From positions 1 to 33,584 of the forward strand of contig JANQKJ010000272.1 in assembly GCA_028281205.1 (NCBI GenBank): a DNA stretch of 33,584 nucleotides, read 5' to 3'. The stretch comes from Gammaproteobacteria bacterium. GTDB lineage: Bacteria > Pseudomonadota > Gammaproteobacteria > UBA4575. A program made the position numbers and the translations under genes. Below, piece by piece: positions 6,645 to 21,663 of the stretch; positions within the stretch are counted from its first letter, which is position 1, and each line of letters opens with the position of its first letter. The notes beneath the pieces are model-generated. The model was given only the letters and a program-made list of their open reading frames with translations, searched no databases and was not told where the DNA came from.

Positions 6645-6646
6645 TT

Positions 6647-7273: not shown

Positions 7274-7294
7274 CTTATATTAAGAAGAATAAAA

Positions 7295-8413
7295 ATGGAT
7301 AAAATTAAAGTACTGGTTGTTGATGATTCAGCATTAATAAGGTGTCTGTTATCAGATATGCTTAATGCAGATCCGCATATTGAAGTTATAGATACTGCAA
7401 ATGATCCTATTGAAGCGCGTAGTAAAATAAAGTTACATAATCCTGATGTAATTACTTTAGATATTGAAATGCCAAAAATGGATGGCATTACATTTCTTGA
7501 TAAATTAATGCGTTTGCATCCAATGCCTGTAGTGATGATTTCTTCGCATACACAAAAAGGTGCGGAATGTGTAATGCGCTGTTTACAAATAGGTGCAGTA
7601 GACTTTATGCCTAAGCCTGTAAGTAATCATGATGATTCGCTAAGTATTTATGCCTCAAACCTTATTAATAAAGTCAAGGCTGCAAGTCATGCAGATGTTA
7701 CAAAGCATTTACAAATAAGTGATAAAAATTCTCACCAAGTAATGGCTGATGGCATGCCGGCTTGTGAAATTAAAGCACCAGAGCTGTTAAATGCAAATAC
7801 TAATATTCGCTTAGTTGCAATTGGCTCGTCAACAGGAGGTACTGAAGCGCTTGCCCAGCTAATACAACATATACCTGTTGATTTTCCGCCTATTGTTATT
7901 ACTCAGCATATCCCTTCAAAATTTAGTAAAGCTTTTGCGGAAAGGCTAGATCGTCATTGCGCGGTAAGCGTTATTGAGGCTCAGGATGGAGATGAGATAA
8001 AAGCAGGACATGTTTATATTGCGCCAGGTGGAAAGCAAATGGAAGTGGTTAAATATAAATATAATCTAATGTGTAAAGTTTTTGAGGGTGAGAAAGTCAA
8101 CAGACACCGCCCTTCCGTGGAAGTGTTGTTTAAGTCAGTTGCCAAAGTTGTTGGTAAGAAAGTGATTAGCGTTATGCTCACTGGTATGGGCGATGACGGT
8201 TCCGCATCAATGAAGACTATAAAAGATATGGGCGGTATTACCATCGCTCAAGATGAGCAATCTAGTGTGGTGTGGGGGATGCCAGGTGCTGCTGTTAAGT
8301 TAGGATGTATAGATAAAGTTGTTTCTTTGGATAAGATTCCTGAACTACTCGTTAAGTTATGTCGTGAAAATTCAACTAATTCACTTTCAAATTTACGTTC
8401 AGCATCACAATAA
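7295..8413 (+). CDS. cheB: Chemotaxis response regulator / protein-glutamate methylesterase CheB
   Basis: N-terminal REC domain (VLVVDDSALIR, TLDIEMPKMDG). C-terminal esterase domain (VAIGSSTGGTEAL, MLTGMGDDG, WGMPGAA). Confidence 0.95.
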   Translation: MDKIKVLVVDDSALIRCLLSDMLNADPHIEVIDTANDPIEARSKIKLHNPDVITLDIEMPKMDGITFLDKLMRLHPMPVVMISSHTQKGAECVMRCLQIGAVDFMPKPVSNHDDSLSIYASNLINKVKAASHADVTKHLQISDKNSHQVMADGMPACEIKAPELLNANTNIRLVAIGSSTGGTEALAQLIQHIPVDFPPIVITQHIPSKFSKAFAERLDRHCAVSVIEAQDGDEIKAGHVYIAPGGKQMEVVKYKYNLMCKVFEGEKVNRHRPSVEVLFKSVAKVVGKKVISVMLTGMGDDGSASMKTIKDMGGITIAQDEQSSVVWGMPGAAVKLGCIDKVVSLDKIPELLVKLCRENSTNSLSNLRSASQ

Positions 8414-8425
8414 AACTTTACTGCT

Positions 8426-9259
8426 ATGAGAAAAAATTACGTGCTGACAGATTCAGAATATAAAGATATATGCTCGTTAGTATATCAAAACACTGGTATC
8501 ATTCTTAATGAGGAAAAGCGTAAGCTTGCTTATTCGCGATTTTCAAGACGACTAAAAGCATTAAAATTAAACAGTTTTGGTGAATATTGCGATATTGTGC
8601 GTGCTGGCGATAAAAATGAAATGACTCATTTTGCAAATGCCATCACCACTAATCTAACTTCATTTTTTAGAGAGTCGCATCACTTTGATCGCTTGGTCGA
8701 TGATGTTATGCCAGCGTTACTAAAAAAGCCTTCACGTAAAATTCGTATTTGGTCTGCTGGGTGTTCCACAGGTGAAGAGCCTTATTCCATTGCCATTGCA
8801 ATATTGAAAAAATTTCCCAATATTGCTGCTGGATGGGATTGCAAGATTTTAGCGACAGATCTTGACTCTAAAGTACTTGAGACTGCATCACAAGGTTTAT
8901 ATAAGGCGCAAGGATTAGATACTCTGGATGATCCAGAGATCAGTATAAACTGGTTTAAGAAAGGTATTATTGATGGCGTTGAATATGCACAAGTCTTGCC
9001 GCAAGTAAGAGAGTTAATTAAATTCAAGCAACTCAACTTGATGAATTATCCCTGGCCTATGCAAGGGACTTTTGATGTTATCTTCTGTAGGAATGTAGTC
9101 ATCTATTTTGATCAGGTAACACAAAAAAAATTATTTTCACATTTCTCCAAAGTGCAAAACATTGGTGGTTATCTCTTCATTGGACACTCAGAAACACTTA
9201 AGGGTTTTGATACTGACTATAAAAATACTGGGCGTACTGTCTATATAAAAGAACGCTGA
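8426..9259 (+). CDS. cheR: Chemotaxis protein methyltransferase CheR
   Basis: 277 aa. Motifs TNLTSFFRE, IWSAGCSTGEEPYSIA, FDVIFCRNVVIYFD and LFIGHSE. Confidence 0.95.
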   Translation: MRKNYVLTDSEYKDICSLVYQNTGIILNEEKRKLAYSRFSRRLKALKLNSFGEYCDIVRAGDKNEMTHFANAITTNLTSFFRESHHFDRLVDDVMPALLKKPSRKIRIWSAGCSTGEEPYSIAIAILKKFPNIAAGWDCKILATDLDSKVLETASQGLYKAQGLDTLDDPEISINWFKKGIIDGVEYAQVLPQVRELIKFKQLNLMNYPWPMQGTFDVIFCRNVVIYFDQVTQKKLFSHFSKVQNIGGYLFIGHSETLKGFDTDYKNTGRTVYIKER

Positions 9260-9356: not shown

Positions 9357-10061
9357 ATGCTTAGAATACTTACCGCAGCAGTAGTAATATTTTTCTCAAG
9401 TGCTGCAATTGCCTCTAACCTTGCAGAGGACTTGGATAGATTCGTCAAAGAATACATTAATACAGCACCACAAGATGTACAAACAGACTTTAATCGAGGT
9501 ATCGAAGAAGTCAGCCTGTCAGGAATTCTGGATAAAGCCATTAATGTTGGCGACTATGCACCCGAGTTTAAATTGATTAACGCGGTAGGGAAAGAAGTCT
9601 CTTTATATGATGAGTTAGAAAAAGGGCCAGTGGTACTGGTCTGGTATCGTGGTGGTTGGTGCCCATATTGCAACTTACAGTTGCAACATATCCAACGTAA
9701 ACTTGCAGAAATTGCTGAAGCGGGAGGGCAAGTTATTGCAATCTCGCCTGAATTGCCGGATAAAACAATGACTACTAAAGAGCGTCATATGCTGCAGTTT
9801 CAGGTATTGAGTGATGTTAATAATCATGTTGCAGATAGATATAGATTAGCTTATACCGTACCTGATTATGTTGTTGATCATTATGACTTATCTTCTAAGC
9901 TAAATGCTCATAATGGAGATGATGAAAATAGGCTGCCTCTAGCAGTCACTTATGTCGTCGGTAAAAATGGTGTTGTTGAATATGCATTTTTGGATGCAGA
10001 TTATAAAAATAGAGCTACTCCGGAAGAGATAATTTCTGTATTGCGATATATAAATAAGTAA
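9357..10061 (+). CDS. Exported AhpC/TSA (peroxiredoxin-like) thioredoxin-fold protein
   Basis: Sec-type signal peptide (MLRILTAAVVIFFSSAAIASN). Thioredoxin-fold motif WYRGGWCPYCNLQL. Confidence 0.8.
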   Translation: MLRILTAAVVIFFSSAAIASNLAEDLDRFVKEYINTAPQDVQTDFNRGIEEVSLSGILDKAINVGDYAPEFKLINAVGKEVSLYDELEKGPVVLVWYRGGWCPYCNLQLQHIQRKLAEIAEAGGQVIAISPELPDKTMTTKERHMLQFQVLSDVNNHVADRYRLAYTVPDYVVDHYDLSSKLNAHNGDDENRLPLAVTYVVGKNGVVEYAFLDADYKNRATPEEIISVLRYINK

Positions 10062-10102
10062 TTATCTCTTCTTGTAAATGAGGTGCTTTAGATAACAATT
10101 AC

Positions 10103-10510
10103 TCAGTAGTCCGACCCCTCAATCATCACGCCAGCAAGTGTTGTGTAGGTTACTGCCCAAGCATCTTTCACTTCTGGAGTGAAATCATCTTTAAGGCCTT
10201 GTTCTAATGTCCATAGTAATGATGCACCTACTTTATCGTAATCTTCTGCTTTAACTCCATAATCAACATGCTTTTTACCTAATGCCTTGACTGGTTCAAT
10301 TAATGCTTCAATATTATCTAAGCCAGCAACTGCGGTATTGATCATCATCATTAGTTTTTTGCCTTGTTCTTTCATGTCTCCTTTGAAGTACGTTTTTACT
10401 TCTGGGTATTGTTCAAATAATCGATTGTAAAAGAGATCTGCTGCGGTCTCTTTAATTGGCATTACTTTTGCCCAAGATTGTTGAACGAGTTCTTTCTGCT
10501 CTGGGGTCAT
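10103..10510 (-). CDS. Single-domain 3/3 globin of the Vgb/Cgb/Hmp-globin type
   Basis: 135 aa with no signal peptide. LFYNRLFEQYPEVKTYF aligns by eye with Vitreoscilla Hb TFYKNLFAKHPEVRPLF (Tyr B10). KEQGKKL gives Gln E7. LGKKHVDYGV gives the proximal His F8. Its start codon directly abuts the stop of the upstream cytochrome c5 gene. Confidence 0.85.
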   Translation of the reverse strand: MTPEQKELVQQSWAKVMPIKETAADLFYNRLFEQYPEVKTYFKGDMKEQGKKLMMMINTAVAGLDNIEALIEPVKALGKKHVDYGVKAEDYDKVGASLLWTLEQGLKDDFTPEVKDAWAVTYTTLAGVMIEGSDY

Positions 10511-10891
10511 TTAATTGTCCTCTTTATTTATATAATATTCTGCAAGTGCTTTCATATAATCCACAGCTAGTTTTACTTCATTATCACTAAGGCTATCGTT
10601 ACCTCCTCTAGGAGGCATCATTGTATCTTCAGGCCCAAAGAAACCATTTATGGCGTGATCATATAAAATATCAATAGGTTTCACTACTCTGTCTTGCCAA
10701 TCTTTTGCTTTTAATGGGTTAGGAGATTCGGCGATGCCATAAGCATGACAGCCTTCACAGCTATCTATCCATATGACTCTTCCTTGGACTAAATTAGCTT
10801 GCTCAAAATGAACATACGTATCCTCTTCAGACAATGCTTGTGTACTGCCGAAGAGGATACATATGAAAATTAGTGTTGACTTAGTAATCAT
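10511..10891 (-). CDS. Periplasmic monoheme cytochrome c, c5 family
   Basis: Signal peptide present, single CEGCH motif, c5-like tail (MMPPRGGNDSLSDNEVKLAVDYM). Lies 3 nt after the preceding gene. Confidence 0.85.
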   Translation of the reverse strand: MITKSTLIFICILFGSTQALSEEDTYVHFEQANLVQGRVIWIDSCEGCHAYGIAESPNPLKAKDWQDRVVKPIDILYDHAINGFFGPEDTMMPPRGGNDSLSDNEVKLAVDYMKALAEYYINKEDN

Positions 10892-10894
10892 TAA

Positions 10895-11503
10895 CTAACC
10901 ACTAATAGGAATACGTATTACTACTCCTCCCATCACGTCACCCATTTTAAAGTCACGTTTAGGTGTGTCTTTATGGTCGTTATGACAACTTACACATACG
11001 GGCGCAACAGCAGTATCAGCATACACTGCAGTAAAATATTCAGTACCGCCAAGTTCTTCAGTTGCGTAGTAGTTTTGGCCTTTGTTTTCGGCAACAAATT
11101 TTAATCCTTCTTTCTCTACATCCGTTTTAGGAGCGTTTTGTTTATTGATTGGCCAAAGTGACTGTAATGAGTAACTAAAATTAACATCGGGTTTTTCTTC
11201 AGCACGTTTAGCTACCATTTCAGCGCCAAATCTAAACATCTGTGCAGGTAATACTAAGGCTTTGTCATCTTCGAAATGCTCACTTGCCTTAATGACTTTT
11301 TCTTTTTTAACCAAGCGATTAACAATTCTTTTTGTGTATACTGCACGATCTGAATCCATTACCAAATGTAATGCATCTGCCATCGCTTTTGGGGTAATTG
11401 ATGGGGTGGTGCCTGCATCTTTGGCGATAGCGATACCAGCACCAATGCTTAGACATGTGGCTATTGTGACAATAGCCAGGTTCATTTTTTTCTCTTCTTT
11501 CAT
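10895..11503 (-). CDS. Periplasmic DUF3365 / Tll0287-like c-type heme protein
   Basis: Signal peptide (MNLAIVTIATCLSIGAGIAIA; the true start may be the second Met at 11485). Single CVSCH near the C-terminus, followed by GDVMGGVVIRIP, as I recall for the family. AGGAG SD before 11503. Confidence 0.7.
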   Translation of the reverse strand: MKEEKKMNLAIVTIATCLSIGAGIAIAKDAGTTPSITPKAMADALHLVMDSDRAVYTKRIVNRLVKKEKVIKASEHFEDDKALVLPAQMFRFGAEMVAKRAEEKPDVNFSYSLQSLWPINKQNAPKTDVEKEGLKFVAENKGQNYYATEELGGTEYFTAVYADTAVAPVCVSCHNDHKDTPKRDFKMGDVMGGVVIRIPISG

Positions 11504-11581
11504 TGCTGTATGACTCCTATATTATGGTTGATACTAAAGTTAGTAGCTTGAGTGAAAATCAATACACAAATGCTACAAAGT

Positions 11582-12991
11582 TTATTCGGCATCCTGTTTC
11601 TCTTGTAAATATCTTTCTAAATCTTTTCTTGCTAAATCAATGCTTTCTACTTTGACTTTACTTAAACCATTAAAATTATTTTTAATTAAATCTTCATCTG
11701 CTAACGAATCAATAGCAAAACCAAGCCCATGACAATGTAAGCATGAAGATCGGATCATTTTGCTATTTGGAGACAAATTTGCGCTTTGGTTATGGTCGAC
11801 TAATTTTCTAGTAGTCCATTCGCTCACGTCATAGTCGATGCGGGGCATATGACAACTTGCACATGAGACACCTTGGTTTTCATGCTTGTTATCATTACTT
11901 GTTTGCTCTTGTATCCAGAGAGCATAATGTTTTGAATCTTTATAAGCTAATGAATGATCGTCGGCGTGACATTGAAGACAGCCATCTACAGCTGCATAAC
12001 TGACATCATAGTTATGTGCGCCATGACAACTATTGCAAGTCAGTTCTTTATGTGATGCATCACTATGCATAGGTAATAATGCTTGTGCTGGTGTCATAGC
12101 TGATAATCCAGCTTGTAAGCGCATGCCATGTTTACCTAATTTAAATCGATTCACTTCATGGTTATGGCATTGATTGCAACTATCCATGTTAGGAGAATCA
12201 TTCCAAACAGCTACTTGAGTTTTTTCAGTAATACTAATATGACACGCAGAACAGTTTACTCCTGATGCAGCATGAGCAGTGGTACTCCAGTCGTGGATGA
12301 TAGCTTCATCGTAATGTTTATCTTTTGGTGCATCTATTTCTTCTATGCTGAGTGCTTGTACTGGATATTTATCGCGAGGGTATTCAAGGATTTCATCCAA
12401 AACATCGAAAAACTCTTTCGCAGGAAGCGTTGCATTATTTTTATGGAAGGGGTCATCCATATGTTTAACAAGAAAATCTGTATATAGTGCGCGGTTGTTA
12501 TGGAAGTTATGACATCCGGAATCTTTGCACGTCATAAATGACATTCCTTCATGTGAAGGTCTTTCCTGGGCAATTTCTGCATGACAATGAAAACAGACAT
12601 CTCTTGGTTGAGTCAGGCCATCTTTTAAAGTTATTTCTGGTTTATGCTCAACGTGACAGCTAACGCAGTGAGTAGCATTAATTTTTTCTAAAGTATCTGC
12701 GTTACGAGGGTCCTTGAATTTCGACCTTGGGTGTGAGTCATTAGGCTTAACTCGGTCATCACCATGACAACTAATACAGGCATCTTGTAATATTTCGTCA
12801 CCACCAAAAGCACTGGTATGACATGTATCGCAAGCATCAACCAACTGGTGATGGCCTGGACTCAAGTCTCCAGGCATAAATAACGTTTTAGTTACTCCCT
12901 CAGACATTAGAAGGTAAGTAAAAAATAACGCAATGGCTACACTGGCTATCAGCCACGATACCCAGAACTGGAGATTGTTTTTTTTGTTCAT
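11582..12991 (-). CDS. Membrane-anchored multiheme cytochrome c with about 11 heme sites
   Basis: N-terminal signal anchor (FWVSWLIASVAIALFFTYLLM). Ten CXXCH motifs: CDTCH, CISCH, CVSCH, CFHCH, CSACH, CNQCH, CNSCH, CLQCH, CASCH and CLHCH. One CX4CH motif (CKDSGCH). No CXXCK motif. Confidence 0.9.
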   Translation of the reverse strand: MNKKNNLQFWVSWLIASVAIALFFTYLLMSEGVTKTLFMPGDLSPGHHQLVDACDTCHTSAFGGDEILQDACISCHGDDRVKPNDSHPRSKFKDPRNADTLEKINATHCVSCHVEHKPEITLKDGLTQPRDVCFHCHAEIAQERPSHEGMSFMTCKDSGCHNFHNNRALYTDFLVKHMDDPFHKNNATLPAKEFFDVLDEILEYPRDKYPVQALSIEEIDAPKDKHYDEAIIHDWSTTAHAASGVNCSACHISITEKTQVAVWNDSPNMDSCNQCHNHEVNRFKLGKHGMRLQAGLSAMTPAQALLPMHSDASHKELTCNSCHGAHNYDVSYAAVDGCLQCHADDHSLAYKDSKHYALWIQEQTSNDNKHENQGVSCASCHMPRIDYDVSEWTTRKLVDHNQSANLSPNSKMIRSSCLHCHGLGFAIDSLADEDLIKNNFNGLSKVKVESIDLARKDLERYLQEKQDAE

Positions 12992-13000
12992 AAATTAACA

Positions 13001-15010
13001 CTAATACCAGTAACCTTTTAAAATATGCCAAGCTAGTAATACTGGGATTGGCCAAAATAAAAGAATATGTATATACACAGATAAATGACGTGCGCGGGTT
13101 GCTATAGCATTACTTAATTTATGTTCTAAGCTGATTACACCAGATGAAATAGCACCGGCGATCAACATCATTGAAAAGCCAAGCATAAGAACAAAATTAA
13201 GGCCATTACCTAGCCGGAATCCGGTATGTGCAACTAATGTGACAACAACTAATACTCCCAGGCATATATGAGCTAAACGCCAGTAATCAAACTTACCTAA
13301 TTTGTCTAGCTTTCTTATTCGTTTGCGTAAAGATATTAATAATCCAATACTGAATAGTCCTAAGACGGAAAAACCCGATATCTGTTTAAATAAATCATTT
13401 CGCCAAAGTACGTCCCAATGCCAGCCGTTCTGTACTGTCGTTGCGTAAGGTAAATTTGGCGCAATATAAAAAAGTAATGACAAAATTAATGTCACTATAG
13501 AAAAACTTGTTAATGTTCTATACATTGAGGCCGGTTCTTTGTTTATGTTTGAGCCTATTAGCTCTTGAACTAAGGGCTTGCATGAACCACATACAGTGCT
13601 TGCGCCTGTTGAATCAGAAACCATTTGCACGCTATTTGCGCCTTGGTGGATACAATCGCTAATACTTCCGCGTGTGACGCTCATACATTGACAAACAACA
13701 GCTCTTGCCGGCCAGGCACTTACAGTATTACCAATATCTTCTGGCCAAATATTTCCAGTGCGTAAAAATCTTATAACTTGCCATGGATAAAATTTCGCAG
13801 CATTTCCAATAGTTGTTTGTAATCGTACTGTTTCATCCCATTGACCGATACCAATAGCTCCAACTAGGCGGTAGCGATGTACTAGAATCTTGCGGTATAT
13901 ACCTTTGCTTTCATCTTTATAAACATAATGCTTGCCATAATGTTGAATTTCGCTGTTACCCATTGGCCCCATACTAAATACTTGAGTATCGATTACCTTT
14001 AATCGAGAAGCAGCAACAGAACCTGAATATAAATGTTTGATATTTGCAATATTGGCAGCAGCGACACTCGCTTGCTCTAAACCAGGTGCAACTAAGCCAT
14101 AGATTTCATTGCGGTGTTCTGCACATTCTCCAACTGCATATATGTCTGCTTGCGAGGTTTGCATTGAATCATTGACAGTAATGCCTCTGTTATAAGCCAG
14201 CTTAGACCGTTTTGCTAATTCAATATTTGGTCTAATTCCAGTAGATAAAATGATTGTGTCACAATCAATATGTTTTCCTGAACGTAACGATAATCCCGTT
14301 ACACGCTCATCATTATCACCAAATATCTCGGTGACGCTATCTTGCGTAATTAATTCAATACCTAAAGATGTAATTTCTTTTTCTAGTATATTGGCTGCAT
14401 CGATATCAAGTTGATTGCTTAACAGACGATCCGCATGTTCTATCAGCGTGACTTTTGTATTTTGTTTTTGCATCGCACGTGCTGATTCAATACCAAGTAA
14501 TCCTCCGCCGAGGACCACAGTATGATGAGAGCGTGCACGTCTTGCGATTAAACTATTGGCATCTTTAAAGTTGCGAAATGTATATACGCCATGTTGATGA
14601 ATGCCAGGAATATTGGGTTCAAAAGGATAAGATCCTGTTGCTAATATTAATTTTGAATAAGGCTGTTTTCTGTCTGAATTGTCATAAATACATTTTTTAT
14701 CAATATCGATATTAGTCACTTTGAAACCAAAGCGCTGTTCTATATTACAATCAGATGGTATGTCTAATGGTTGTAATAATGATTCCCAATCGACATCACC
14801 TGCTAACCATGAAGATAGTTTAATGCGGTTATAGGGTTCTTGTTGTTCATCTCCATAGATAATGATGGAAGTATTAGGTGACTTTTTAATAATTTCTTTA
14901 GCAGTACGCATGCCAACCGGACCATTACCAATTATCACTAATGGTAATTCTCTTATCATAGAAACATTAGCTGAATTAGATTCCATGACTATGTGGCTGG
15001 TTGCTGACAT
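13001..15010 (-). CDS. Fusion protein: NirB-N-terminal-like FAD/NAD(P)H oxidoreductase, BFD-like [2Fe-2S] domain and a 5-TM bis-histidine (putative di-heme b) membrane domain
   Basis: Two Rossmann motifs (VIIGNGPVGMR, VVLGGGLLGIESA). Strong similarity to the first ~400 aa of the bona fide NirB at 19231 (for example AVGECAEHRNEIYGLVAP versus AVGECVQHRNVCYGLVAP). BFD pattern CQC...CGSC. Five predicted TM helices follow. TM3 is AHICLGVLVVVTLVAH (H581-x13-H595) and TM5 is HILLFWPIPVLLAWH (H648-x13-H662). No siroheme/4Fe-4S nitrite-reductase domain is present. Confidence 0.8.
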   Translation of the reverse strand: MSATSHIVMESNSANVSMIRELPLVIIGNGPVGMRTAKEIIKKSPNTSIIIYGDEQQEPYNRIKLSSWLAGDVDWESLLQPLDIPSDCNIEQRFGFKVTNIDIDKKCIYDNSDRKQPYSKLILATGSYPFEPNIPGIHQHGVYTFRNFKDANSLIARRARSHHTVVLGGGLLGIESARAMQKQNTKVTLIEHADRLLSNQLDIDAANILEKEITSLGIELITQDSVTEIFGDNDERVTGLSLRSGKHIDCDTIILSTGIRPNIELAKRSKLAYNRGITVNDSMQTSQADIYAVGECAEHRNEIYGLVAPGLEQASVAAANIANIKHLYSGSVAASRLKVIDTQVFSMGPMGNSEIQHYGKHYVYKDESKGIYRKILVHRYRLVGAIGIGQWDETVRLQTTIGNAAKFYPWQVIRFLRTGNIWPEDIGNTVSAWPARAVVCQCMSVTRGSISDCIHQGANSVQMVSDSTGASTVCGSCKPLVQELIGSNINKEPASMYRTLTSFSIVTLILSLLFYIAPNLPYATTVQNGWHWDVLWRNDLFKQISGFSVLGLFSIGLLISLRKRIRKLDKLGKFDYWRLAHICLGVLVVVTLVAHTGFRLGNGLNFVLMLGFSMMLIAGAISSGVISLEHKLSNAIATRARHLSVYIHILLFWPIPVLLAWHILKGYWY

Positions 15011-15042
15011 GCGTACGCAAATAATTAAGTAATATGTATTAA

Positions 15043-16377
15043 CTAAAAGTTAATACCACCCCAAAGCCAGAAGACTTTTTTATCTTCGCGGAAGTCATCG
15101 TCGCCATTGAAGTCTGCGTATTTAGCACCTAATGAGTAATGCTTGCCGAATTTCTTCACAGCAAGTAGATTAAGCTCATCACCATAATCATCAATTAACT
15201 GATCATCTTCTGGCTCGTATTCGTGGTAAACTGCAAGTAATTTGACACCATAGAACTTAGTTCCAACTGAAACGTAGGTGTCTTCGATTCCAGCAGTTCC
15301 TGCTGCACCATAAACACCTGATATTCCGGAGCCTAAGAACACATCAGCCCAACCTTGGAAAGCATGTAAAGTAGCAAAAGGTGTGATAAAACTTTCACCA
15401 TCGTCAACATCGCCTTCAAGCGTTTCCATGCCTACTTTAACTGTGATTGGTGCAAGGTTTGCAGCACCCGTTTTAAAACTCACGCCACCTTCAAGTAATG
15501 TGTAGTTTAAAGAACTGAAGTCATCTGCTTCTTTGTAATCATCTTGAGATGCATATTCGCCTGTGCCTAGCAATGTGATAGATTCAGACACAGGGAATTT
15601 ACCTTTTAAACGAATACCCGCGGTTTTGCGCGAATCATCTTCGCCAAATAACAGATTAACTTCTTCATCCCCTTCCCAGAGATAGTAGTAGCCTGTTGCA
15701 TCCAAGTACTTTAAGCCTGAATAGTTGATGTTAAAGTTGTTATTAGTGACATTGAAATCGCCTGCTGTGCCTGCTTGATCACCAAAAATGCGATTAACAT
15801 TTGTCTGGTGTGAATACATACCTCGTAAGCCATACTTTTTAGACTCTACTGTCACAAGAGTTGCGTCATAGGTTTGCTCGTTTTGTCTCCAACCAACATT
15901 GCCTATAAATCTATCGTTATCCCATTTTTGACGTTGCCGGCCATAGCGAATTAAAAAACTAGTATCTTCATAAGCATTACTAAATTGGATATATGCTTGG
16001 TTTAGTTCAGTTTCTTCAGGATCAGCAACAGTGTCGTATTCCAGATCTTCTTCGTCTAATGGGCCGGGGCCGTCATTATATTTTTTACTGCCTACTTCAC
16101 GAATGTCCTCCATTTCTGCAAATATCGAGAAACCATGAAAGTCTCCTGTTTGATAACCTAGGCGAGTGCGAATTGTTGATGCTTTAGCCTTATCACGATT
16201 TTCGCCCATTACAAGCGCGTCATCATCAACACCTTCGTAACGATAACGTACATTAGCTTTCAACTTTCCCCCAGTTAATGCTTTAGTAAATTCATCTACT
16301 TGACCGTCAGCAAATGTATAACTAGATTGCATGCCAAGTAGTAAGCAACTTGATAACGCAATGTTTAATAACTTCAT
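15043..16377 (-). CDS. Outer-membrane beta-barrel porin (family not assigned)
   Basis: Signal peptide ends in FA-DG. The sequence shows an alternating amphipathic pattern rich in Tyr, Gly and Asp. C-terminal WGGINF ends in Phe. GGGAGA SD. First gene of the minus-strand operon. Confidence 0.75.
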   Translation of the reverse strand: MKLLNIALSSCLLLGMQSSYTFADGQVDEFTKALTGGKLKANVRYRYEGVDDDALVMGENRDKAKASTIRTRLGYQTGDFHGFSIFAEMEDIREVGSKKYNDGPGPLDEEDLEYDTVADPEETELNQAYIQFSNAYEDTSFLIRYGRQRQKWDNDRFIGNVGWRQNEQTYDATLVTVESKKYGLRGMYSHQTNVNRIFGDQAGTAGDFNVTNNNFNINYSGLKYLDATGYYYLWEGDEEVNLLFGEDDSRKTAGIRLKGKFPVSESITLLGTGEYASQDDYKEADDFSSLNYTLLEGGVSFKTGAANLAPITVKVGMETLEGDVDDGESFITPFATLHAFQGWADVFLGSGISGVYGAAGTAGIEDTYVSVGTKFYGVKLLAVYHEYEPEDDQLIDDYGDELNLLAVKKFGKHYSLGAKYADFNGDDDFREDKKVFWLWGGINF

Positions 16378-16439
16378 GACTATTTATCTCCCTAGGTTTT
16401 TAAATAAGGTTGCCGATTAAAAATTTTTTTACGCGCATA

Positions 16440-16475
16440 AAAAAAGCCACAGCCAAATATTTCATTAGCTGTGAC
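16440..16475 (-). terminator. Leader intrinsic terminator (attenuator) upstream of the porin gene
   Basis: The minus strand reads GUCACAGC, a 14-nt loop, GCUGUGGC and then U6. The stem is 8 bp with one G-U pair. It lies between a sigma-54 promoter and the porin start codon, not at the end of any gene. Confidence 0.6.
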
Positions 16476-16509
16476 TTCTTCGTCTATTAGCTGAGCGTCT
16501 TTGATCAGC
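16473..16509 (-). promoter_or_regulatory. Candidate ANTAR (NasT) dual-hairpin binding element in the porin-operon leader
   Basis: On the minus strand, P1 is GCUGAuC-AAAGAC-GcUCAGC, with a hexaloop having A1 and G4. P2 is aGAC-GAAGAA-GUCa, and its 3' arm is the start of the terminator's 5' arm. Confidence 0.5.
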
Positions 16510-16536
16510 AAAGTTAAATTCTACTAATTCCGCTAG

Positions 16537-16552
16537 AGCAAAGATAATGCCA
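16537..16552 (-). promoter_or_regulatory. Sigma-54 (-24/-12) promoter for the porin operon
   Basis: The minus strand reads TGGCATTATCTTTGCT. This matches TGGCAC-N5-TTGCW, with GG and GC at canonical spacing. Confidence 0.65.
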
Positions 16553-16839: not shown

Positions 16840-17442
16840 TTGGAGAACTGTGGCTTGAATAAATATTTATCTGTAATGTTAGTCGACAATGACCCTGTTA
16901 GGTCTGCAATTGTTGAAGAATATTTATTAGATAATGGATATCAAGTTGTTCAAAGGCTTGATTCAACAACTGACTTAGCTACTCAAATTGAGCAGATTAA
17001 GCCTGATGTGATTGTTGTTGATATTGATTCACCTGATAGAGACACTTTAGAGGATGTGCATTTAGCATCCAAAGATGAGCCGCGTCCAATAGTTTTGTTC
17101 ACGGATGATAGTAATAAGAACACGATGGATAAAGCTATTAAAGCTGGGATTAGTGCATATGTTGTAGATGGTTTAAGTAAATCCAGGATTAAGCCTGTTA
17201 TTGAAGTTGCAATCGCTAGATTCGAAGAATACCAAGCTTTAAGAAATGAATTAGATGAAGCTAAATCCAAGCTTGCAGATAGAAAAGATATTGATATCGC
17301 AAAAGGCTTACTTCAAAAGCAACACCATATGACTGAAGAAAGTGCTTATCAAGCATTAAGGAAAATTGCTATGGATCAAAAAATCACTATTGGGGCTGCA
17401 GCGCGTAATTTAATATCCATTAGTAAAATTATCAATTCATGA
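16840..17442 (+). CDS. nasT: NasT-type response regulator with an ANTAR RNA-binding antiterminator domain
   Basis: REC domain (MLVDNDPVR, VIVVDIDSPDRD) followed by an ANTAR domain (RKDIDIAKGLLQKQHHMTEESAYQALRKIAMDQKITIGAAARNLI). The start is ambiguous: TTG 16840, TTG 16855 (GGAG 9 nt upstream) or ATG 16876. Confidence 0.85.
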   Translation: MENCGLNKYLSVMLVDNDPVRSAIVEEYLLDNGYQVVQRLDSTTDLATQIEQIKPDVIVVDIDSPDRDTLEDVHLASKDEPRPIVLFTDDSNKNTMDKAIKAGISAYVVDGLSKSRIKPVIEVAIARFEEYQALRNELDEAKSKLADRKDIDIAKGLLQKQHHMTEESAYQALRKIAMDQKITIGAAARNLISISKIINS

Positions 17443-19230: not shown

Positions 19231-21663
19231 ATGAAGAAAAAATTAGTATTAATAGGCAATGGTATGGCAGGTATAAGGACTGTCGAAGAACTGCTTAAAA
19301 TTGATGATTCACTCTATGATATTACTGTTTTTGGTTCTGAACCTTATGGTAACTACAATCGTATTATGCTTTCTCCTTTACTGGCAAGCGAGAAAACGAT
19401 TGATGAGATCATGCTTAATGATAAGGAATGGTATGCGCAAAACGATATAACTTTACGTGCTGGTGTTACTGTTGAAAATATTGATCGTATCAACAAACAA
19501 GTCAACGCAGGTAACGTAAAAGAATCATATGATCGTTTAATCATTGCCACAGGTTCTAATCCATTTATGTTGCCAGTCCCAGGTGCTGACTTAGAGGGTG
19601 TTATCGGGTTTCGGGATATCGCTGACGTAGAAAATATGTTGACGACTGCAAAAAATTATAAAAATGCAGTCATTATCGGTGGTGGTTTATTAGGCTTGGA
19701 AGCTGCAAATGGACTTATGAAACAAGGTATGCATGTTTCTGTCGTGCATCTAAGTGGTTCACTAATGAATCGTCAGCTGGATAAAGCATCTTCGTTGCTG
19801 TTGAAAACTTCATTAGAAGAGCGTGGCATGAAGTTTTACATGCAAGCAGATACCGAATGCATTTTAGGTGATGGTCATGTGCAGGAAGTTAAATTTAAAG
19901 ATGGTACTCGTATCCCTGCAGACTTGGTTGTAATGGCTGCAGGTATAAAACCCAATATTGCTCTGGCTCAACAAGCAAATATTTACTGCGATCGTGGCAT
20001 TGTTGTAACTGATACCATGCAAACCTACGATCCAAATATTTATGCAGTCGGTGAATGTGTTCAGCACCGTAATGTATGTTACGGCTTAGTAGCACCATTA
20101 TTTGATCAAGCTAAAGTATGTGCCAATCACCTTGCTCAAATTGGAACCAAACAATATGAAGGTTCAGTAATTTCTACAAAGTTAAAAGTCACTGGAATTG
20201 ATTTGTTTTCGGCTGGGCAATTTGATGAGAAAGAAGGTGACGAAACACTTATTCTGCAAGATCCATCACAAGGCGTCTATAAGAAACTAGTTATTCGTGA
20301 TAATGCGATTAAAGGTGCTGTTCTTTATGGAGACACGCTAGATGGAAGCTGGTATTTCCAATTAATGCGGGAAAAAACCGATGTTTCGGGCTTTAGAAAT
20401 AATCTTCTGTTTGGGCAGCATGATTTAGGTGACGCAGGTCATGGAGAAGAGAGTCGTGTCATAGCCATGGGAGACGATGCGGAAATATGCGGTTGTAACG
20501 GTGTATGTAAAGGCGAAATTGTTTCTGCGATTGGTGAGAAGAAGTTATTCACACTTGATGATGTTCGCTCGCATACCAAAGCCTCTTCTTCTTGTGGTTC
20601 ATGTACTGCCTTGGTTGAAGCACTGCTTGCATCGACAGTGGGTGAGGGTTATGACGCAGCACCCAGTGTGAAACCAATATGCGGGTGTACTGAATATAGT
20701 CATGACCAAATCATTGCGGCGATTAAAGAACAACAATTAAAAGATATGCGCTCCGTATTTGAATATTTGAATTGGAAAACCGACGATGGTTGTCATATAT
20801 GTCGCCCGGCAGTTAATTATTATTTGCTTGCGCGATGGCCAGGTGAATATGTAGATGATAGTCAATCACGTTTCATTAATGAGCGTGCGCATGGAAATAT
20901 ACAAAAAGATGGAACTTATTCTGTAGTGCCACGAATGTTTGGCGGTTTATGCACACCAAATGATTTGCGTGCAATTGCTGATGCATGTGACAAGTATGAC
21001 GTTCCGGAAATGAAAGTCACTGGCGGCCAGCGTATCGACATGTTCGGCGTTAAAAAAGAGGATCTTCCGTCAATGTGGAGAGATCTTTCTGAGGCGGGTT
21101 TTGTTTCTGGCCATGCCTATGGCAAAGCATTACGCACTGTTAAAACATGCGCAGGTAAAACATGGTGCCGCTTTGGAACACAGGACTCTACTGATCTTGG
21201 CGTCAAATTAGAACAACTCACATGGGGTTCTTGGATGCCACATAAATTTAAGATGGCTGTTTCTGGTTGTCCCAGAAATTGTGCTGAAGCAACTATCAAA
21301 GACTTTGGTGTCGTCTGTGTTGATTCTGGTTATGAGTTACATGTCGGGGGTAATGGCGGAATTAAAGTCAGAGTGACTGACTTTCTCGTCAAAGTAGATA
21401 CAGAAGAAGAAGTGCTCGAATACAGTGCTGCATTTGCCCAACTTTATCGTGAAGAAGCGCATTATTTAGAGCGTACTGCGCCTTGGGTTGAACGTGTTGG
21501 CCTAGCTTACATTAAACAGCAAATCTTAGAAGATGAACAAAATCGCAAAGCGTTATATGAGCGTTTTAAATATTCGCAGCAATTTGCACAGATTGACCCA
21601 TGGAAACAACGTGCTGAAGGCAAGCAACGTCATGAGTTCACGCCATTAGAATTAGTAGGATAA
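19231..21663 (+). CDS. nirB: Assimilatory NAD(P)H nitrite reductase, large subunit
   Basis: 810 aa. Contains FAD/NAD Rossmann motifs, a BFD [2Fe-2S] domain (CGCNGVCKGEI...CGSC) and a sulfite/nitrite-reductase siroheme-4Fe-4S region (TCAGKTWCRFG, SGCPRNCAEA). Confidence 0.95.
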   Translation: MKKKLVLIGNGMAGIRTVEELLKIDDSLYDITVFGSEPYGNYNRIMLSPLLASEKTIDEIMLNDKEWYAQNDITLRAGVTVENIDRINKQVNAGNVKESYDRLIIATGSNPFMLPVPGADLEGVIGFRDIADVENMLTTAKNYKNAVIIGGGLLGLEAANGLMKQGMHVSVVHLSGSLMNRQLDKASSLLLKTSLEERGMKFYMQADTECILGDGHVQEVKFKDGTRIPADLVVMAAGIKPNIALAQQANIYCDRGIVVTDTMQTYDPNIYAVGECVQHRNVCYGLVAPLFDQAKVCANHLAQIGTKQYEGSVISTKLKVTGIDLFSAGQFDEKEGDETLILQDPSQGVYKKLVIRDNAIKGAVLYGDTLDGSWYFQLMREKTDVSGFRNNLLFGQHDLGDAGHGEESRVIAMGDDAEICGCNGVCKGEIVSAIGEKKLFTLDDVRSHTKASSSCGSCTALVEALLASTVGEGYDAAPSVKPICGCTEYSHDQIIAAIKEQQLKDMRSVFEYLNWKTDDGCHICRPAVNYYLLARWPGEYVDDSQSRFINERAHGNIQKDGTYSVVPRMFGGLCTPNDLRAIADACDKYDVPEMKVTGGQRIDMFGVKKEDLPSMWRDLSEAGFVSGHAYGKALRTVKTCAGKTWCRFGTQDSTDLGVKLEQLTWGSWMPHKFKMAVSGCPRNCAEATIKDFGVVCVDSGYELHVGGNGGIKVRVTDFLVKVDTEEEVLEYSAAFAQLYREEAHYLERTAPWVERVGLAYIKQQILEDEQNRKALYERFKYSQQFAQIDPWKQRAEGKQRHEFTPLELVG

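What the first reader, a model, noticed from the sequence alone, without database searches (positions are those of the whole stretch)
10103..16552. Six-gene periplasm-directed redox operon in the nitrate regulon that matches no characterised pathway
The genes are tightly packed on the minus strand. Gaps are 32, 9, 78, 3 and 0 nt. The gene order is porin; flavoprotein/[2Fe-2S]/bis-His membrane fusion; cytochrome c with about 11 hemes; DUF3365 heme-c protein; cytochrome c5; and a TyrB10/GlnE7 globin. Together they predict an electron path from cytoplasmic NAD(P)H across the inner membrane via two putative b hemes. Electrons would then enter a periplasmic pool of 13 c-type hemes, with a dedicated outer-membrane channel. 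The operon has its own sigma-54 promoter and an ANTAR-type attenuator of the same design as the nirBD-nasA and nrtABD leaders. It should therefore be induced by N limitation plus nitrate or nitrite. None of the known nitrate or nitrite modules (Nap, Nrf, NirS/K, Nor, Hao, Otr) has this composition. My hypothesis is a NAD(P)H-driven periplasmic system that reduces or detoxifies a nitrogen oxide such as nitrite, NO or hydroxylamine, and that accompanies assimilation. The globin would handle NO that reaches the cytoplasm. The function is inference only.
Basis: partly seen in the sequence, partly recalled or inferred. Interest (0 to 1): 0.9.

Follow-up and report, generated by a model that had tools for sequence, protein, structure and literature searches.

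The report
NAD(P)H-driven periplasmic heme module, nitrate-regulated
The six genes are real, and five of them form an uncharacterised cassette found in hundreds of bacterial species that probably carries electrons from cytoplasmic NAD(P)H across the inner membrane to periplasmic heme proteins. The cassette sits under nitrate/nitrite or nitric-oxide regulators, so it is most likely a new way of disposing of nitric oxide or related nitrogen oxides.

Summary
Six minus-strand ORFs lie at the stated coordinates with gaps of 32/9/78/3/0 nt, and every predicted domain is there.

The conserved unit is not the six genes. It is a core of flavoprotein-membrane fusion, 11-heme cytochrome and DUF3365/Cache_heme, usually with a class I cytochrome c and a globin. 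Relatives of the cytochrome were found in at least 588 genome stretches across Gamma- and Betaproteobacteria, Nitrospirota, Verrucomicrobiota and Terriglobia.

The membrane domain has four invariant histidines. It is also fused to an unrelated FNR-type reductase in other proteins, which supports NAD(P)H to FAD to [2Fe-2S] to two b hemes to periplasm.

Nitrate-assimilation genes are the commonest neighbours. About a third of cassette leaders carry a hexaloop hairpin plus terminator (1.6% in random windows), and about a third a sigma-54 motif (1.9%). Other cassettes sit next to NsrR-like regulators. Three different globin types have been recruited.

The porin is not a dedicated channel: it is rare beside cassettes and occurs with nitrate or amide uptake genes without the cassette.

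The best reading is an NAD(P)H-powered, two-compartment system that detoxifies or salvages NO or other N-oxides. The substrate is inferred. No paper describing the cassette was found.

The parts
16537..16552 (-). sigma-54-type promoter match TGGCAT-N5-TTGCT
   Evidence: It is one of three matches in the whole window, and another lies upstream of nrtA. The same motif is conserved in relatives L085, L005 and L087 and occurs upstream of 23 of 71 cassettes, against 1.9% of random windows.
16490..16509 (-). leader hairpin with an A-x-x-G hexaloop (GCUGAUC-AAAGAC-GCUCAGC), a candidate ANTAR/NasT binding site
   Evidence: Relative L085 has GCUGCUC-AACGUC-GCGCAGC, a compensatory A-U to C-G change with the U.C mismatch kept.
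16439..16481 (-). intrinsic terminator (attenuator) of the leader, 13-17 bp stem plus U-run
   Evidence: The leader fold has z = -4.6. The stem is kept through compensatory changes in L085 and L005.
15043..16377 (-). outer-membrane porin of the Alginate_exp family with a signal peptide. It is probably an uptake channel for nitrate/nitrite or another small N compound and is not specific to the cassette.
13001..15010 (-). fusion protein: FAD/NAD(P)H reductase (the N-terminal half of NirB), BFD-type [2Fe-2S] domain and a C-terminal 5-helix membrane domain (residues about 489-669, nt 13004-13546) with four invariant His
11582..12991 (-). membrane-anchored periplasmic cytochrome c with 11 heme motifs (10 CxxCH plus CX4CH) and 12 invariant non-motif His
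10895..11503 (-). periplasmic DUF3365/Tll0287-like (Cache_heme) monoheme protein of the subgroup without an axial Cys. It is the most conserved protein of the cassette.
   Evidence: preprint 10.64898/2026.02.01.703092
10511..10891 (-). periplasmic class I cytochrome c (c5/ScyA-like); CxxCH and the MPxxGG methionine-ligand motif are conserved
   Evidence: Present in 53 of 80 loci.
10103..10510 (-). cytoplasmic single-domain globin (TyrB10, GlnE7, HisF8)
   Evidence: Present in 60 of 80 loci. A truncated haemoglobin replaces it in 8 verrucomicrobial loci.
16840..17442 (+). divergently transcribed nasT (receiver + ANTAR response regulator), the likely antiterminator acting on the leader
   Evidence: nasT lies directly upstream of the cassette on the same strand in about 17 other loci.

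Best explanation
The core is a five-gene cassette that works as an NAD(P)H-powered module with a cytoplasmic and a periplasmic branch. It deals with nitric oxide, or closely related N-oxides such as nitrite or hydroxylamine, made as by-products of nitrate and nitrite metabolism.

**Proposed steps**
1. The cytoplasmic part of the fusion protein oxidises NAD(P)H and passes electrons from FAD to the BFD [2Fe-2S] cluster.
2. The electrons cross the inner membrane through two b hemes. One would be held by H581/H648 on the cytoplasmic side and the other by H595/H662 on the periplasmic side.
3. They enter the membrane-anchored 11-heme cytochrome.
4. They reach the Cys-less Cache_heme protein, and/or the class I cytochrome c, where an N-oxide is bound and reduced.
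5. The same flavoprotein probably keeps the cytoplasmic globin ferrous, so that it can turn NO and O2 into nitrate, as Flp does for Bjgb in Bradyrhizobium.

**Regulation.** In this window the operon starts at a sigma-54 promoter and is gated by a NasT/ANTAR-type attenuator. It would therefore be switched on together with nitrate assimilation.

**The porin** in front is a co-regulated uptake channel and not part of the redox machine.

**Shown:** domain composition, conservation, gene linkage and the leader elements.
**Inferred:** heme b binding, the direction and donor of electron flow, the substrate and product, and the globin-reductase coupling.
For: **Architecture**
- NirB-N-half plus BFD plus membrane domain.
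- Four invariant His, with a positive-inside topology that puts the BFD domain in the cytoplasm.
- The same membrane domain follows cNMP- or EF-hand + BFD + FNR-type FAD/NAD modules, with the same four His.
- Sub-threshold Ferric_reduct hits in 3 of 6 homologues.

**Linkage**
- Fusion, 11-heme cytochrome and DUF3365 occur together in 75-76 of 80 loci from five phyla or classes.

**N-oxide link**
- The top neighbour families are nrtA/nasS (32 loci), nrtB (24), nasT (23) and nrtD (19).
- A hexaloop hairpin plus terminator lies upstream of 23 of 71 cassettes, against 1.6% of random windows. A sigma-54 motif occurs in 23 of 71, against 1.9%.
- Thiosocius has a sigma-54 motif, two AACGUU hexaloop hairpins and a terminator although no nas gene is nearby.
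- NsrR-like Rrf2 regulators lie next to the cassette in 7 verrucomicrobial and 2 gammaproteobacterial loci. In the latter, NsrR scores 130-150 bits against 94-98 for RirA.
- The globin is present in three non-orthologous forms: HGbI-like, Vgb/Hmp-like at 36-41% identity, and truncated Hb.
- All 76 DUF3365 orthologues lack the axial Cys. The one characterised Cys-less Cache_heme binds NO tightly and does not form a stable oxy complex.
- The C-terminal half of the cytochrome has weak but significant profile similarity to IhOCC (3.7e-6), NrfA (4e-6) and the octaheme nitrite reductase. The best fold match is HAO.

**Precedent**
- The NasT-controlled Bjgb-Flp NO-detoxification pair in the nitrate-assimilation operon of Bradyrhizobium (PMC4724949).

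**Co-loss**
- The closest relative genome lacks the nas cluster. It has also deleted the cassette, leaving a 5' stub of the fusion gene.
Against: - No experiment on any member was found.
- The cytochrome has 12 invariant non-motif His for 11 hemes and no CxxCK, so sequence gives no sign of an open catalytic heme.
- Its AlphaFold model is mediocre (pLDDT 68.6) and the HAO match has a TM-score of only 0.28.
- The membrane domain has no Pfam family and no solved relative, so heme binding rests on the His pattern alone.
- The DUF3365 heme could be His/Met-ligated (M89 and M191 are invariant) and act only as an electron carrier.
- 23 of the 41 loci with full flanks have no N-assimilation gene within 10 kb.
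- The verrucomicrobial Rrf2 regulators score almost equally as NsrR and as the iron regulator RirA.
- NO crosses membranes freely, so the need for a separate periplasmic branch is not obvious.
Confidence: 0.5

Rival explanations
1. Assimilatory periplasmic reductase. The cassette would be an NADH-driven analogue of Nrf, epsilon-Hao or the octaheme nitrite reductase. It would reduce nitrite (or hydroxylamine) to ammonium in the periplasm as an alternative or supplement to cytoplasmic NirBD. NO handling by the globin would be a side function.
For: - The fusion is literally the electron-input half of NirB with the sirohaem half replaced by a membrane conduit.
- The cassette sits between nasT and nrtABC in many loci.
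- A sigma-54 promoter implies control by N limitation.
- The cytochrome shows similarity to NrfA, ONR and IhOCC.
Against: - This window and many loci also carry complete nirBD.
- There is no CxxCK motif or other active-site signature.
- A globin and NsrR-like regulators fit detoxification better.
- Verrucomicrobial cassettes show no link to N-assimilation genes.
Confidence: 0.2
2. Iron or metal reductase, or a general electron exporter. NAD(P)H electrons would be exported to reduce periplasmic Fe(III) chelates or other metals. This would supply iron for the iron-rich nitrate-assimilation enzymes.
For: - Weak Ferric_reduct similarity of the membrane domain.
- Pfam MtrC/MtrF-domain and DmsE-family hits of the cytochrome.
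- A porin lies at the head of this operon.
- The verrucomicrobial Rrf2 regulators score nearly as well for RirA, an iron regulator, as for NsrR.
Against: - The cytochrome is anchored in the inner membrane, not inserted in a porin. The porin is of the Alginate_exp type and is absent from 74 of 80 cassettes.
- No iron-uptake genes recur nearby.
- The globin and the ANTAR/NasT leaders have no explanation under this reading.
- The gammaproteobacterial Rrf2 neighbours are clearly NsrR-like.
Confidence: 0.1
3. Oxidative-stress or redox-balancing shunt. The system would feed the periplasmic cytochrome c pool, for example for a peroxidase or an oxidase. Alternatively it would make or consume superoxide, as NOX enzymes do.
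For: - A class I c5/ScyA-like cytochrome is in the cassette.
- AhpC-type redoxins lie nearby in the window and in L002.
- Cache_heme proteins make superoxide with O2 in vitro.
- The architecture is NOX-like.
Against: - The AhpC gene stays behind when the cassette is deleted in L087.
- The cytochrome c is missing from about a third of cassettes.
- The regulators are specific to nitrate/nitrite or NO.
Confidence: 0.1
4. Sensory device. The Cache_heme protein and the cytochromes would report periplasmic NO or redox state rather than catalyse a reaction.
For: Cache_heme domains fused to signalling modules are NO sensors.
Against: - This protein is stand-alone, with no transmitter domain in the cassette.
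- It is linked to a complete NAD(P)H-to-periplasm electron-supply chain of 13 c hemes, which is hard to justify for sensing.
Confidence: 0.05

Closest known systems
Bjgb-Flp (narK-bjgb-flp-nasC operon) of Bradyrhizobium diazoefficiens (PMC4724949)
   Same: A single-domain haemoglobin and an FAD/NAD(P)H flavoprotein are co-transcribed with nitrate-assimilation genes under NasS-NasT antitermination. They mitigate NO made during nitrate assimilation.
   Different: Flp is soluble. Here the flavoprotein carries a BFD [2Fe-2S] domain and a four-His membrane domain, and it is invariably linked to an 11-heme cytochrome and a Cache_heme protein in the periplasm. There is no evidence here that it feeds the nitrate reductase.
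NOX / ferric-reductase-domain systems, including bacterial SpNOX and the MsrQ-Fre-MsrP chain (PMC5676040, PMC11564096, PMC12525009; listed)
   Same: The logic is the same: cytoplasmic NAD(P)H, then flavin, then membrane b hemes held by His pairs about 13-14 residues apart on two helices, then an extracytoplasmic acceptor. MsrQ likewise feeds a periplasmic reductase.
   Different: The dehydrogenase here is of the Pyr_redox_2/NirB type with an extra [2Fe-2S] domain, not the FNR-like FAD_binding_8/NAD_binding_6 type. It lies N-terminal to the membrane domain. The membrane domain has 5 predicted helices and only sub-threshold Ferric_reduct similarity. The acceptor is a multiheme cytochrome c rather than O2, Fe(III) or a Mo enzyme.
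NirB, the NADH-nitrite reductase large subunit
   Same: The first roughly 490 residues align to positions 1-475 of the NirB model (399 bits). They are about 33-35% identical to the window's own NirB.
   Different: The NIR_SIR ferredoxin-like and sirohaem/[4Fe-4S] catalytic domains are absent and a membrane domain takes their place. The score is below the NirB cut-off of 578 bits.
Periplasmic multiheme N-oxide enzymes: NrfA, octaheme nitrite reductase (TvNiR), HAO/epsilon-Hao, IhOCC
   Same: The C-terminal six-heme half gives profile hits to IhOCC 4qo5 (3.7e-6), NrfA (4e-6) and TvNiR (3e-4). The best fold match is HAO 6t5e. From general knowledge, epsilon-Hao and the Nitrospira ONR are proposed to serve nitrate/nitrite assimilation from the periplasm.
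   Different: It has 11 hemes rather than 5 or 8, an N-terminal membrane anchor and no CxxCK. There are enough invariant His for all-bis-His ligation. The electron donor is NAD(P)H through a dedicated fusion protein rather than quinol through NrfH, NapC or a bc complex.
Cache_heme (DUF3365/Tll0287) proteins (preprint 10.64898/2026.02.01.703092)
   Same: Pfam Tll0287-like above cut-off, one CxxCH near the C-terminus, periplasmic and stand-alone.
   Different: The characterised stand-alone members (Tll0287, P. putida) have Cys/His ligation and weak NO binding. This subgroup has no Cys outside CxxCH, like the NO-binding receptor of P. azotoformans. Its profile finds no solved structure.

Membership tests
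NirB (NAD(P)H-nitrite reductase large subunit) | FAD/NAD(P)H pyridine-nucleotide-disulphide-oxidoreductase fold plus BFD [2Fe-2S] domain | tested here: met
   Pyr_redox_2 1.7e-57, Rubredoxin_C and Fer2_BFD 5e-12. TIGR02374 positions 1-475 are matched.
NirB (NAD(P)H-nitrite reductase large subunit) | NIR_SIR_ferr plus NIR_SIR sirohaem/[4Fe-4S] catalytic domains | tested here: not met
   Neither domain gives a hit. The window's true NirB (19231-21663) has both. The score of 399 is below the cut-off of 578.
NOX / ferric-reductase-domain (FRD) transmembrane electron carriers | Two His pairs, about 13-14 residues apart, on two transmembrane helices (bis-heme b) | tested here: met
   H581/H595 and H648/H662 are invariant in 66 orthologues and in the FNR-fused variants. 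Heme binding itself was not tested.
NOX / ferric-reductase-domain (FRD) transmembrane electron carriers | Significant match to the Ferric_reduct (PF01794) profile or to a solved FRD structure | tested here: inconclusive
   E-values of 0.013-0.09 (13-16 bits, cut-off 28) in 3 of 6 homologues. The profile finds nothing in the PDB. The fold could not be searched separately from the flavoprotein.
NOX / ferric-reductase-domain (FRD) transmembrane electron carriers | C-terminal FNR-like FAD_binding_8/NAD_binding_6 dehydrogenase | tested here: not met
   The dehydrogenase is N-terminal and of the Pyr_redox_2 type. Some paralogous fusions use FAD_binding_6/NAD_binding_1.
NrfA / ONR / HAO multiheme N-oxide oxidoreductases | Detectable homology of the heme core | tested here: inconclusive
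   The profile hits are local, with E-values of 4e-6 to 3e-4. Foldseek gives HAO at E 2.8e-4 but a TM-score of 0.28, on a model with pLDDT 68.6. Pfam Cytochrom_C552 scores 20.2, below its cut-off of 24.1.
NrfA / ONR / HAO multiheme N-oxide oxidoreductases | Catalytic heme signature (CxxCK Lys-ligated heme, or a five-coordinate or cross-linked heme) | tested here: not met
   There is no CxxCK. There are 12 invariant non-motif His for 11 hemes. Five-coordination cannot be excluded without a structure that includes the hemes.
Cache_heme (DUF3365/Tll0287-like) | Pfam PF11845 above cut-off and a conserved CxxCH | tested here: met
   72.3 bits against a cut-off of 24.1. CxxCH is present in every orthologue whose ORF was complete.
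Cache_heme (DUF3365/Tll0287-like) | Axial Cys ligand (the Tll0287 / P. putida 'redox' type) | tested here: not met
   No Cys lies outside CxxCH in the mature part of any of the roughly 76 orthologues.
NO-dioxygenase-type globins (flavohaemoglobin / single-domain Hb) | TyrB10, GlnE7 and HisF8 | tested here: met
   FY27-28, Q49 and H81 are at least 90% conserved in 58 orthologues. The best solved relatives are the Methylacidiphilum HGb proteins, neuroglobin, VHb and Hmp.
NO-dioxygenase-type globins (flavohaemoglobin / single-domain Hb) | Fused FNR-like reductase domain (true flavohaemoglobin) | tested here: not met
   The protein is 135 aa, globin domain only. It scores 81 bits against the Hmp cut-off of 432.
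ANTAR (NasT/NasR-type) antitermination leader | Hairpin(s) with a hexaloop carrying A at position 1 and G at position 4, upstream of or overlapping an intrinsic terminator, with the cognate ANTAR regulator present | tested here: met
   The hairpin at 16509-16490 has the loop AAAGAC and the terminator lies at 16481-16439. nasT is adjacent. A compensatory change is seen in L085. The combination is enriched in orthologous leaders. Only one hexaloop hairpin was found here, and its stem has a U.C mismatch. Rfam holds no matching family.
ANTAR (NasT/NasR-type) antitermination leader | Nitrate/nitrite- and NasT-dependent read-through in vivo | not testable with these tools
   Needs RNA-seq or reporter assays in a nasT mutant.
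Mtr-type porin-cytochrome conduit | MtrB-like barrel sheathing a soluble periplasmic decaheme cytochrome | tested here: not met
   The porin is of the Alginate_exp type. The cytochrome has an uncleaved N-terminal helix (pLDDT up to 95). The porin is absent from 74 of 80 cassettes.

The most novel reading that the evidence does not exclude
The cassette could be a previously unrecognised class of bacterial enzyme system: a transmembrane NAD(P)H:cytochrome c oxidoreductase built on a new di-heme membrane domain. It would power a new kind of periplasmic N-oxide reductase whose catalytic centre is either the Cys-less Cache_heme protein or an atypical heme of the 11-heme cytochrome. That would give aerobic, nitrate-assimilating bacteria in several phyla an unaccounted route for turning NO, nitrite or hydroxylamine into N2O or ammonium.
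Probability: 0.35. Interest if true: 0.9.

Novelty: new variant of a known kind. Interest (0 to 1): 0.8.

Why it matters
- **Electron transfer.** If the electron path is right, bacteria have a second, NOX-like way of sending low-potential NAD(P)H electrons into the periplasm. The route is independent of the quinone pool and is built from a membrane domain that has no family assignment.
- **Nitrogen cycle.** If the substrate is an N-oxide, a widespread module has been missed in nitrogen-cycle budgets. Relatives were found in at least 588 genome stretches and 2,514 protein clusters, in marine and freshwater Gamma- and Betaproteobacteria, Nitrospirota and Verrucomicrobiota. It could consume NO, nitrite or hydroxylamine, and might release N2O, during aerobic nitrate assimilation.
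- **Cache_heme proteins.** It would give the stand-alone Cache_heme (DUF3365) proteins a first physiological context.
- **Detoxification and assimilation.** It would extend the Bjgb-Flp idea that NO detoxification is built into nitrate assimilation.
- **Testability.** Cultured carriers exist: Thiosocius teredinicola, Halochromatium glycolicum DSM 11080 and Cerasicoccus maritimus/frondis.

Tried and rejected
- **Porin as a dedicated channel: rejected**.
- **Fold search of the fusion model.** It returned only ferredoxin, rubredoxin and persulfide reductases for the N-terminal part. The membrane domain could not be searched on its own, and model coordinates are not exposed.
- **Profile of the membrane domain against the PDB.** The first attempt was swamped by the cNMP and FNR domains of the long variants. 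A TM-only profile found nothing.
- **DUF3365 against the PDB.** The single sequence and the profile found no solved relative, not even Tll0287. The residue that replaces the axial Cys could therefore not be mapped.
- **Cytochrome model.** pLDDT is 68.6 overall and below 50 for residues 79-168. This is too weak to assign heme ligands.
- **Rfam** found no family in the window.
- **Literature.** Searches for DUF3365 with multiheme or globin, for Tll0287, and for NirB with multiheme, haemoglobin and nitrate assimilation found no description of the cassette. One search failed on term syntax.
- **Mtr-like extracellular electron transfer:** considered and rejected because of the anchored cytochrome and the porin type.
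- **NsrR versus RirA in Verrucomicrobia:** could not be resolved (122.6 against 119.2 bits).

Full report

Yes. One search lists six minus-strand ORFs at exactly the stated coordinates:
- 16377..15043
- 15010..13001
- 12991..11582
- 11503..10895
- 10891..10511
- 10510..10103

The gaps between them are 32, 9, 78, 3 and 0 nt. Pfam and NCBIfam confirm each predicted product:
- **Porin:** Alginate_exp family.
- **Fusion protein (669 aa):** Pyr_redox_2, Rubredoxin_C and a BFD [2Fe-2S] domain. It aligns to positions 1-475 of the 794-position NirB model. About 180 residues of membrane protein with no Pfam hit follow.
- **Cytochrome (469 aa):** ten CxxCH motifs, one CKDSGCH and an N-terminal anchor helix.
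- **DUF3365/Tll0287-like protein:** one CxxCH.
- **Class I cytochrome c:** its nearest solved relatives are c-556, c-555, ScyA and c5.
- **Globin (135 aa):** its nearest solved relatives are the Methylacidiphilum HGb proteins, neuroglobin, VHb and Hmp.

nasT, a nasS-like gene, nirBD, a NasA-like molybdoenzyme and nrtABD lie on the plus strand to the right. A chemotaxis cluster and a secreted AhpC-type redoxin lie to the left.

**2. The leader**

Three elements lie upstream of the porin gene:
- TGGCATTATCTTTGCT at 16552-16537. It is one of only three sigma-54-type matches in the 33.6-kb window, and another lies upstream of nrtA.
- A hairpin GCUGAUC-AAAGAC-GCUCAGC at 16509-16490. Its hexaloop has A at position 1 and G at position 4.
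- A strong terminator at about 16481-16439. The leader fold has z = -4.6.

A window-wide scan found four strict terminators. Two have such a hexaloop hairpin just upstream, and these are this leader and the nrtA leader. The nasS/nirB leader has an AAUGAA hexaloop hairpin and a bulged terminator.

In the closest relative (L085) the hairpin reads GCUGCUC-AACGUC-GCGCAGC. That is a compensatory A-U to C-G change with the U.C mismatch retained. The terminator stems also change in a compensatory way in L085 and L005.

**3. What is the conserved unit?**

The fusion protein and the cytochrome each have many full-length homologues. They are annotated only as 'FAD-dependent oxidoreductase', 'nitrite reductase large subunit' or 'cytochrome c3 family protein'.

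A scan of one genome per species found at least 588 stretches encoding a relative of the cytochrome. They come from Gamma- and Betaproteobacteria, Nitrospirota, Verrucomicrobiota and Terriglobia. In the 80 best loci the counts are:

| Component | Loci out of 80 |
|---|---|
| Fusion protein | 75 |
| DUF3365 | 76 |
| Cytochrome c | 53 |
| 3/3-fold globin | 60 |
| Porin | 6 |

The gene order fusion-cytochrome-DUF3365-cytochrome c-globin is the same in Thiosocius, a Burkholderiaceae MAG and Granulosicoccus.

Verrucomicrobia have a rearranged version: Rrf2 regulator, DUF3365, cytochrome c, truncated haemoglobin, fusion, cytochrome. The unit is therefore a three-gene core plus two frequent accessories. 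The six-gene form is restricted to the window's close relatives.

DUF3365 is the most conserved member, at 54-84% identity across phyla.

**4. Regulatory and genomic links**

Clustering of all neighbours within 6 kb gave four top families:
- nrtA/nasS in 32 loci
- nrtB in 24
- nasT in 23
- nrtD in 19

Of the 41 loci with full flanks, 18 have nitrate-assimilation genes within 10 kb. nasT lies directly upstream on the same strand in about 17 loci overall.

| Feature in the 450 nt upstream of a cassette | Cassettes | Random windows (n = 2,449) |
|---|---|---|
| A..G.. hexaloop hairpin followed by a terminator | 23 of 71 | 1.6% |
| Sigma-54 motif | 23 of 71 | 1.9% |

The Thiosocius cassette has no nas gene nearby. 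It still has a sigma-54 promoter match, two AACGUU hexaloop hairpins and a terminator.

Where nasT is absent, another regulator appears. Seven verrucomicrobial loci have an Rrf2 gene at the head of the cluster, whose best model is NsrR with RirA close behind. Two gammaproteobacterial loci (L038, L041) have clearly NsrR-like neighbours, scoring 130-150 bits for NsrR against 94-98 for RirA. One of these is paired with a truncated haemoglobin.

The verrucomicrobial operons also show a conserved GG-N10-GC motif of sigma-54 type.

**5. The porin**

The porin is not a dedicated channel:
- It is rare beside cassettes.
- A 44%-identical homologue heads an nrtABC-nirBD-nasA cluster that has no cassette.
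- A 52%-identical homologue sits beside amide/urea uptake genes.
- In the syntenic relative L087 the porin, at 77% identity, remains although the cassette has been deleted. A stub of about 65 codons of the fusion gene is left behind, and the nas cluster is replaced by other genes.

That co-loss of the nas cluster and the cassette is a single case, but it fits a functional link between the two.

**6. Electron path**

*Shown.* The N-terminal part of the fusion folds like ferredoxin and rubredoxin reductases (pLDDT 81). The membrane domain has five predicted helices. Its positively charged loops place the BFD domain in the cytoplasm. Four His (581, 595, 648, 662) are invariant in 66 orthologues.

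An exhaustive search found this domain in 602 clusters, almost always at the C-terminus of proteins of 640-700 aa. A few proteins carry it after cNMP-binding or EF-hand domains, a BFD domain and an FNR-type FAD/NAD module, with the same four His conserved. Two unrelated NAD(P)H-flavin modules, each with a BFD cluster, are therefore fused to the same domain. This is good domain-fusion evidence that the domain accepts electrons from NAD(P)H.

*Inferred.* Two b hemes would be held by H581/H648 and H595/H662, and electrons would flow outward. Similarity to the Ferric_reduct family is below threshold, and no solved relative exists.

**7. The periplasmic proteins**

The cytochrome has 11 invariant heme motifs and 12 invariant further His. 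All hemes could therefore be bis-His, and sequence does not reveal a catalytic site.

Its C-terminal half gives local profile hits to IhOCC (3.7e-6), NrfA (4e-6) and the octaheme nitrite reductase. The best fold match is HAO, but the model is mediocre and the TM-score is 0.28.

The DUF3365 orthologues never have a Cys outside CxxCH. A 2026 preprint compares the two types:
- Cys/His stand-alone Cache_heme proteins behave as redox proteins that bind NO weakly.
- A Cys-less member binds NO with k_off of about 6e-4 per second and does not form a stable oxy complex.

Whether the heme here is open, water-ligated or Met-ligated (M89 and M191 are invariant) is unknown.

**8. The globin**

It is cytoplasmic and has the TyrB10/GlnE7/HisF8 triad. 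Three globin types occupy the slot in different lineages:
- HGbI-like
- Vgb/Hmp-like, at 36-41% identity, in L016 and L037-L039
- truncated Hb in Verrucomicrobia

Repeated non-orthologous recruitment argues that a globin is functionally required.

**9. Best explanation (confidence 0.5)**

The cassette is an NAD(P)H-powered module with a cytoplasmic and a periplasmic branch that removes or salvages NO or related N-oxides formed during nitrate and nitrite metabolism. The fusion protein would feed the cytoplasmic globin, by analogy with Bjgb-Flp (PMC4724949). Through two b hemes it would also feed the periplasmic 11-heme cytochrome, the Cache_heme protein and the cytochrome c.

My confidence in the separate claims differs:

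| Claim | Confidence |
|---|---|
| Architecture (electron path) | about 0.8 |
| Membership of the nitrate/N-oxide regulon | about 0.85 |
| NO as the main substrate | about 0.5 |

**10. Rivals**

| Rival | Confidence | Main points |
|---|---|---|
| Periplasmic assimilatory nitrite/hydroxylamine reductase | 0.2 | Fits the replacement of the NirB catalytic half, but complete nirBD usually co-occurs |
| Iron/metal reductase or general electron exporter | 0.1 | Weak Ferric_reduct, Mtr and RirA signals; does not explain the globin or the NasT leaders |
| Redox or ROS shunt through the cytochrome c pool | 0.1 | — |
| Sensor | 0.05 | — |

**11. Comparison with known systems**

The module works like a NOX or MsrQ-Fre-type transmembrane electron exporter (papers listed) joined to a Bjgb-Flp-type NO defence. 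It may also be joined to an Nrf/HAO-like periplasmic reductase. It is not a member of any of these:
- It fails the NirB test because it has no sirohaem domain.
- It fails the NOX dehydrogenase and profile tests.
- It fails the NrfA active-site test.
- It fails the Cys-ligand test of the Tll0287 type.

**12. Novelty**

No paper describing the cassette was found. Only five papers in the library mention DUF3365 at all. The principles are known, but three of the five proteins have no characterised homologue and the combination is new. I rate it a new variant of a known kind, with a real chance (about 0.35) of being a new enzyme system.

**13. Limits**

- There are no experiments, and the predicted structures contain no hemes.
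- Whole genomes could not be scanned, so co-occurrence with other NO or nitrite enzymes is unknown.
- The loci analysed are the 80 best of at least 588, and many are MAG contigs.
- ORFs in the fetched loci were called mechanically.

Noticed in passing
window 22020-26432 (+): The 'assimilatory' nitrate reductase is unusual. A NasA/NasC-like molybdoenzyme without a Tat signal comes first. Its stop overlaps the start of a 611-aa fusion of a DmsB-like 4Fe-4S protein and a DmsC-like membrane anchor. A 122-aa membrane protein with no family follows. This suggests a membrane-anchored, quinol-linked cytoplasmic nitrate reductase. The same genes recur in L025, L034 and L041.
   Followed up: partly
L087 8560-10670 (relative genome, syntenic with window 9357-16552): The closest relative keeps the che cluster, the AhpC gene and the porin (77% identity) with its sigma-54 motif. 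It has deleted the five cassette genes, leaving about 65 codons of the fusion gene's 5' end. It has four unrelated genes where the nas cluster sits in the window. The leader hairpin with the hexaloop is no longer recognisable.
   Followed up: partly
proteins P0336, P0331, P0387, P0251: The four-His membrane domain also occurs at the C-terminus of 865-1013-aa proteins. These carry two or three cyclic-nucleotide-binding domains, or EF-hands, followed by a BFD [2Fe-2S] domain and an FNR-type FAD/NAD module whose closest solved relatives are flavohaemoglobin reductase domains. They may be ligand-gated transmembrane NAD(P)H oxidoreductases.
   Followed up: partly
L080 5752-11317; also L071, L062, L076, L077, L082, L084: The verrucomicrobial version of the cassette has a different gene order, lipoprotein forms of DUF3365 and cytochrome c, a truncated haemoglobin, and an Rrf2 (NsrR/RirA-like) regulator at its head. 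The Rrf2-DUF3365 spacer holds a conserved GG-N10-GC sigma-54-type motif and upstream palindromes such as AAATCGCA-N7-TGCGATTT. ResB/CcsA cytochrome c maturation genes are nearby.
   Followed up: partly
L041 4193-7705 and L038 7287-7694: Two gammaproteobacterial cassettes without nasT have NsrR-like Rrf2 genes immediately upstream. In L041 one of them is paired with a truncated haemoglobin behind an AT-rich palindrome.
   Followed up: partly
L002/L017 3136-9782 (Burkholderiaceae): Here the cassette follows cyanase (cynS), a nitrate/cyanate-type ABC transporter, OsmC, an acyl-CoA-dehydrogenase-like protein, a rhodanese and a DsbA. A sigma-54 activator lies upstream and a sigma-54 motif lies in front of the cassette. 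This is a different nitrogen (cyanate) context.
   Followed up: no
L085 4446-4934 / L086 248-736: The window's close relatives carry a second, 162-aa globin gene about 1.7 kb upstream of the porin, on the same strand.
   Followed up: no
window 9357-10061 (+): A secreted AhpC/TSA-family redoxin is convergent with the globin gene. It stays in place in L087 after the cassette is lost, so it is probably unrelated. A 1-Cys peroxiredoxin also lies near the cassette in L002.
   Followed up: partly
window 10457-10472 (+): A third sigma-54-type match (TGGCATTACTTTTGCC) lies antisense inside the globin gene. It is most likely a chance match.
   Followed up: no
window 27-9259 (+): A complete accessory chemotaxis cluster lies directly beside the cassette: MCP with HAMP_2, CheY, CheA, CheW, an unknown 156-aa protein, CheD, CheB and CheR. 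An MCP also neighbours the cassette in Granulosicoccus L004.
   Followed up: no
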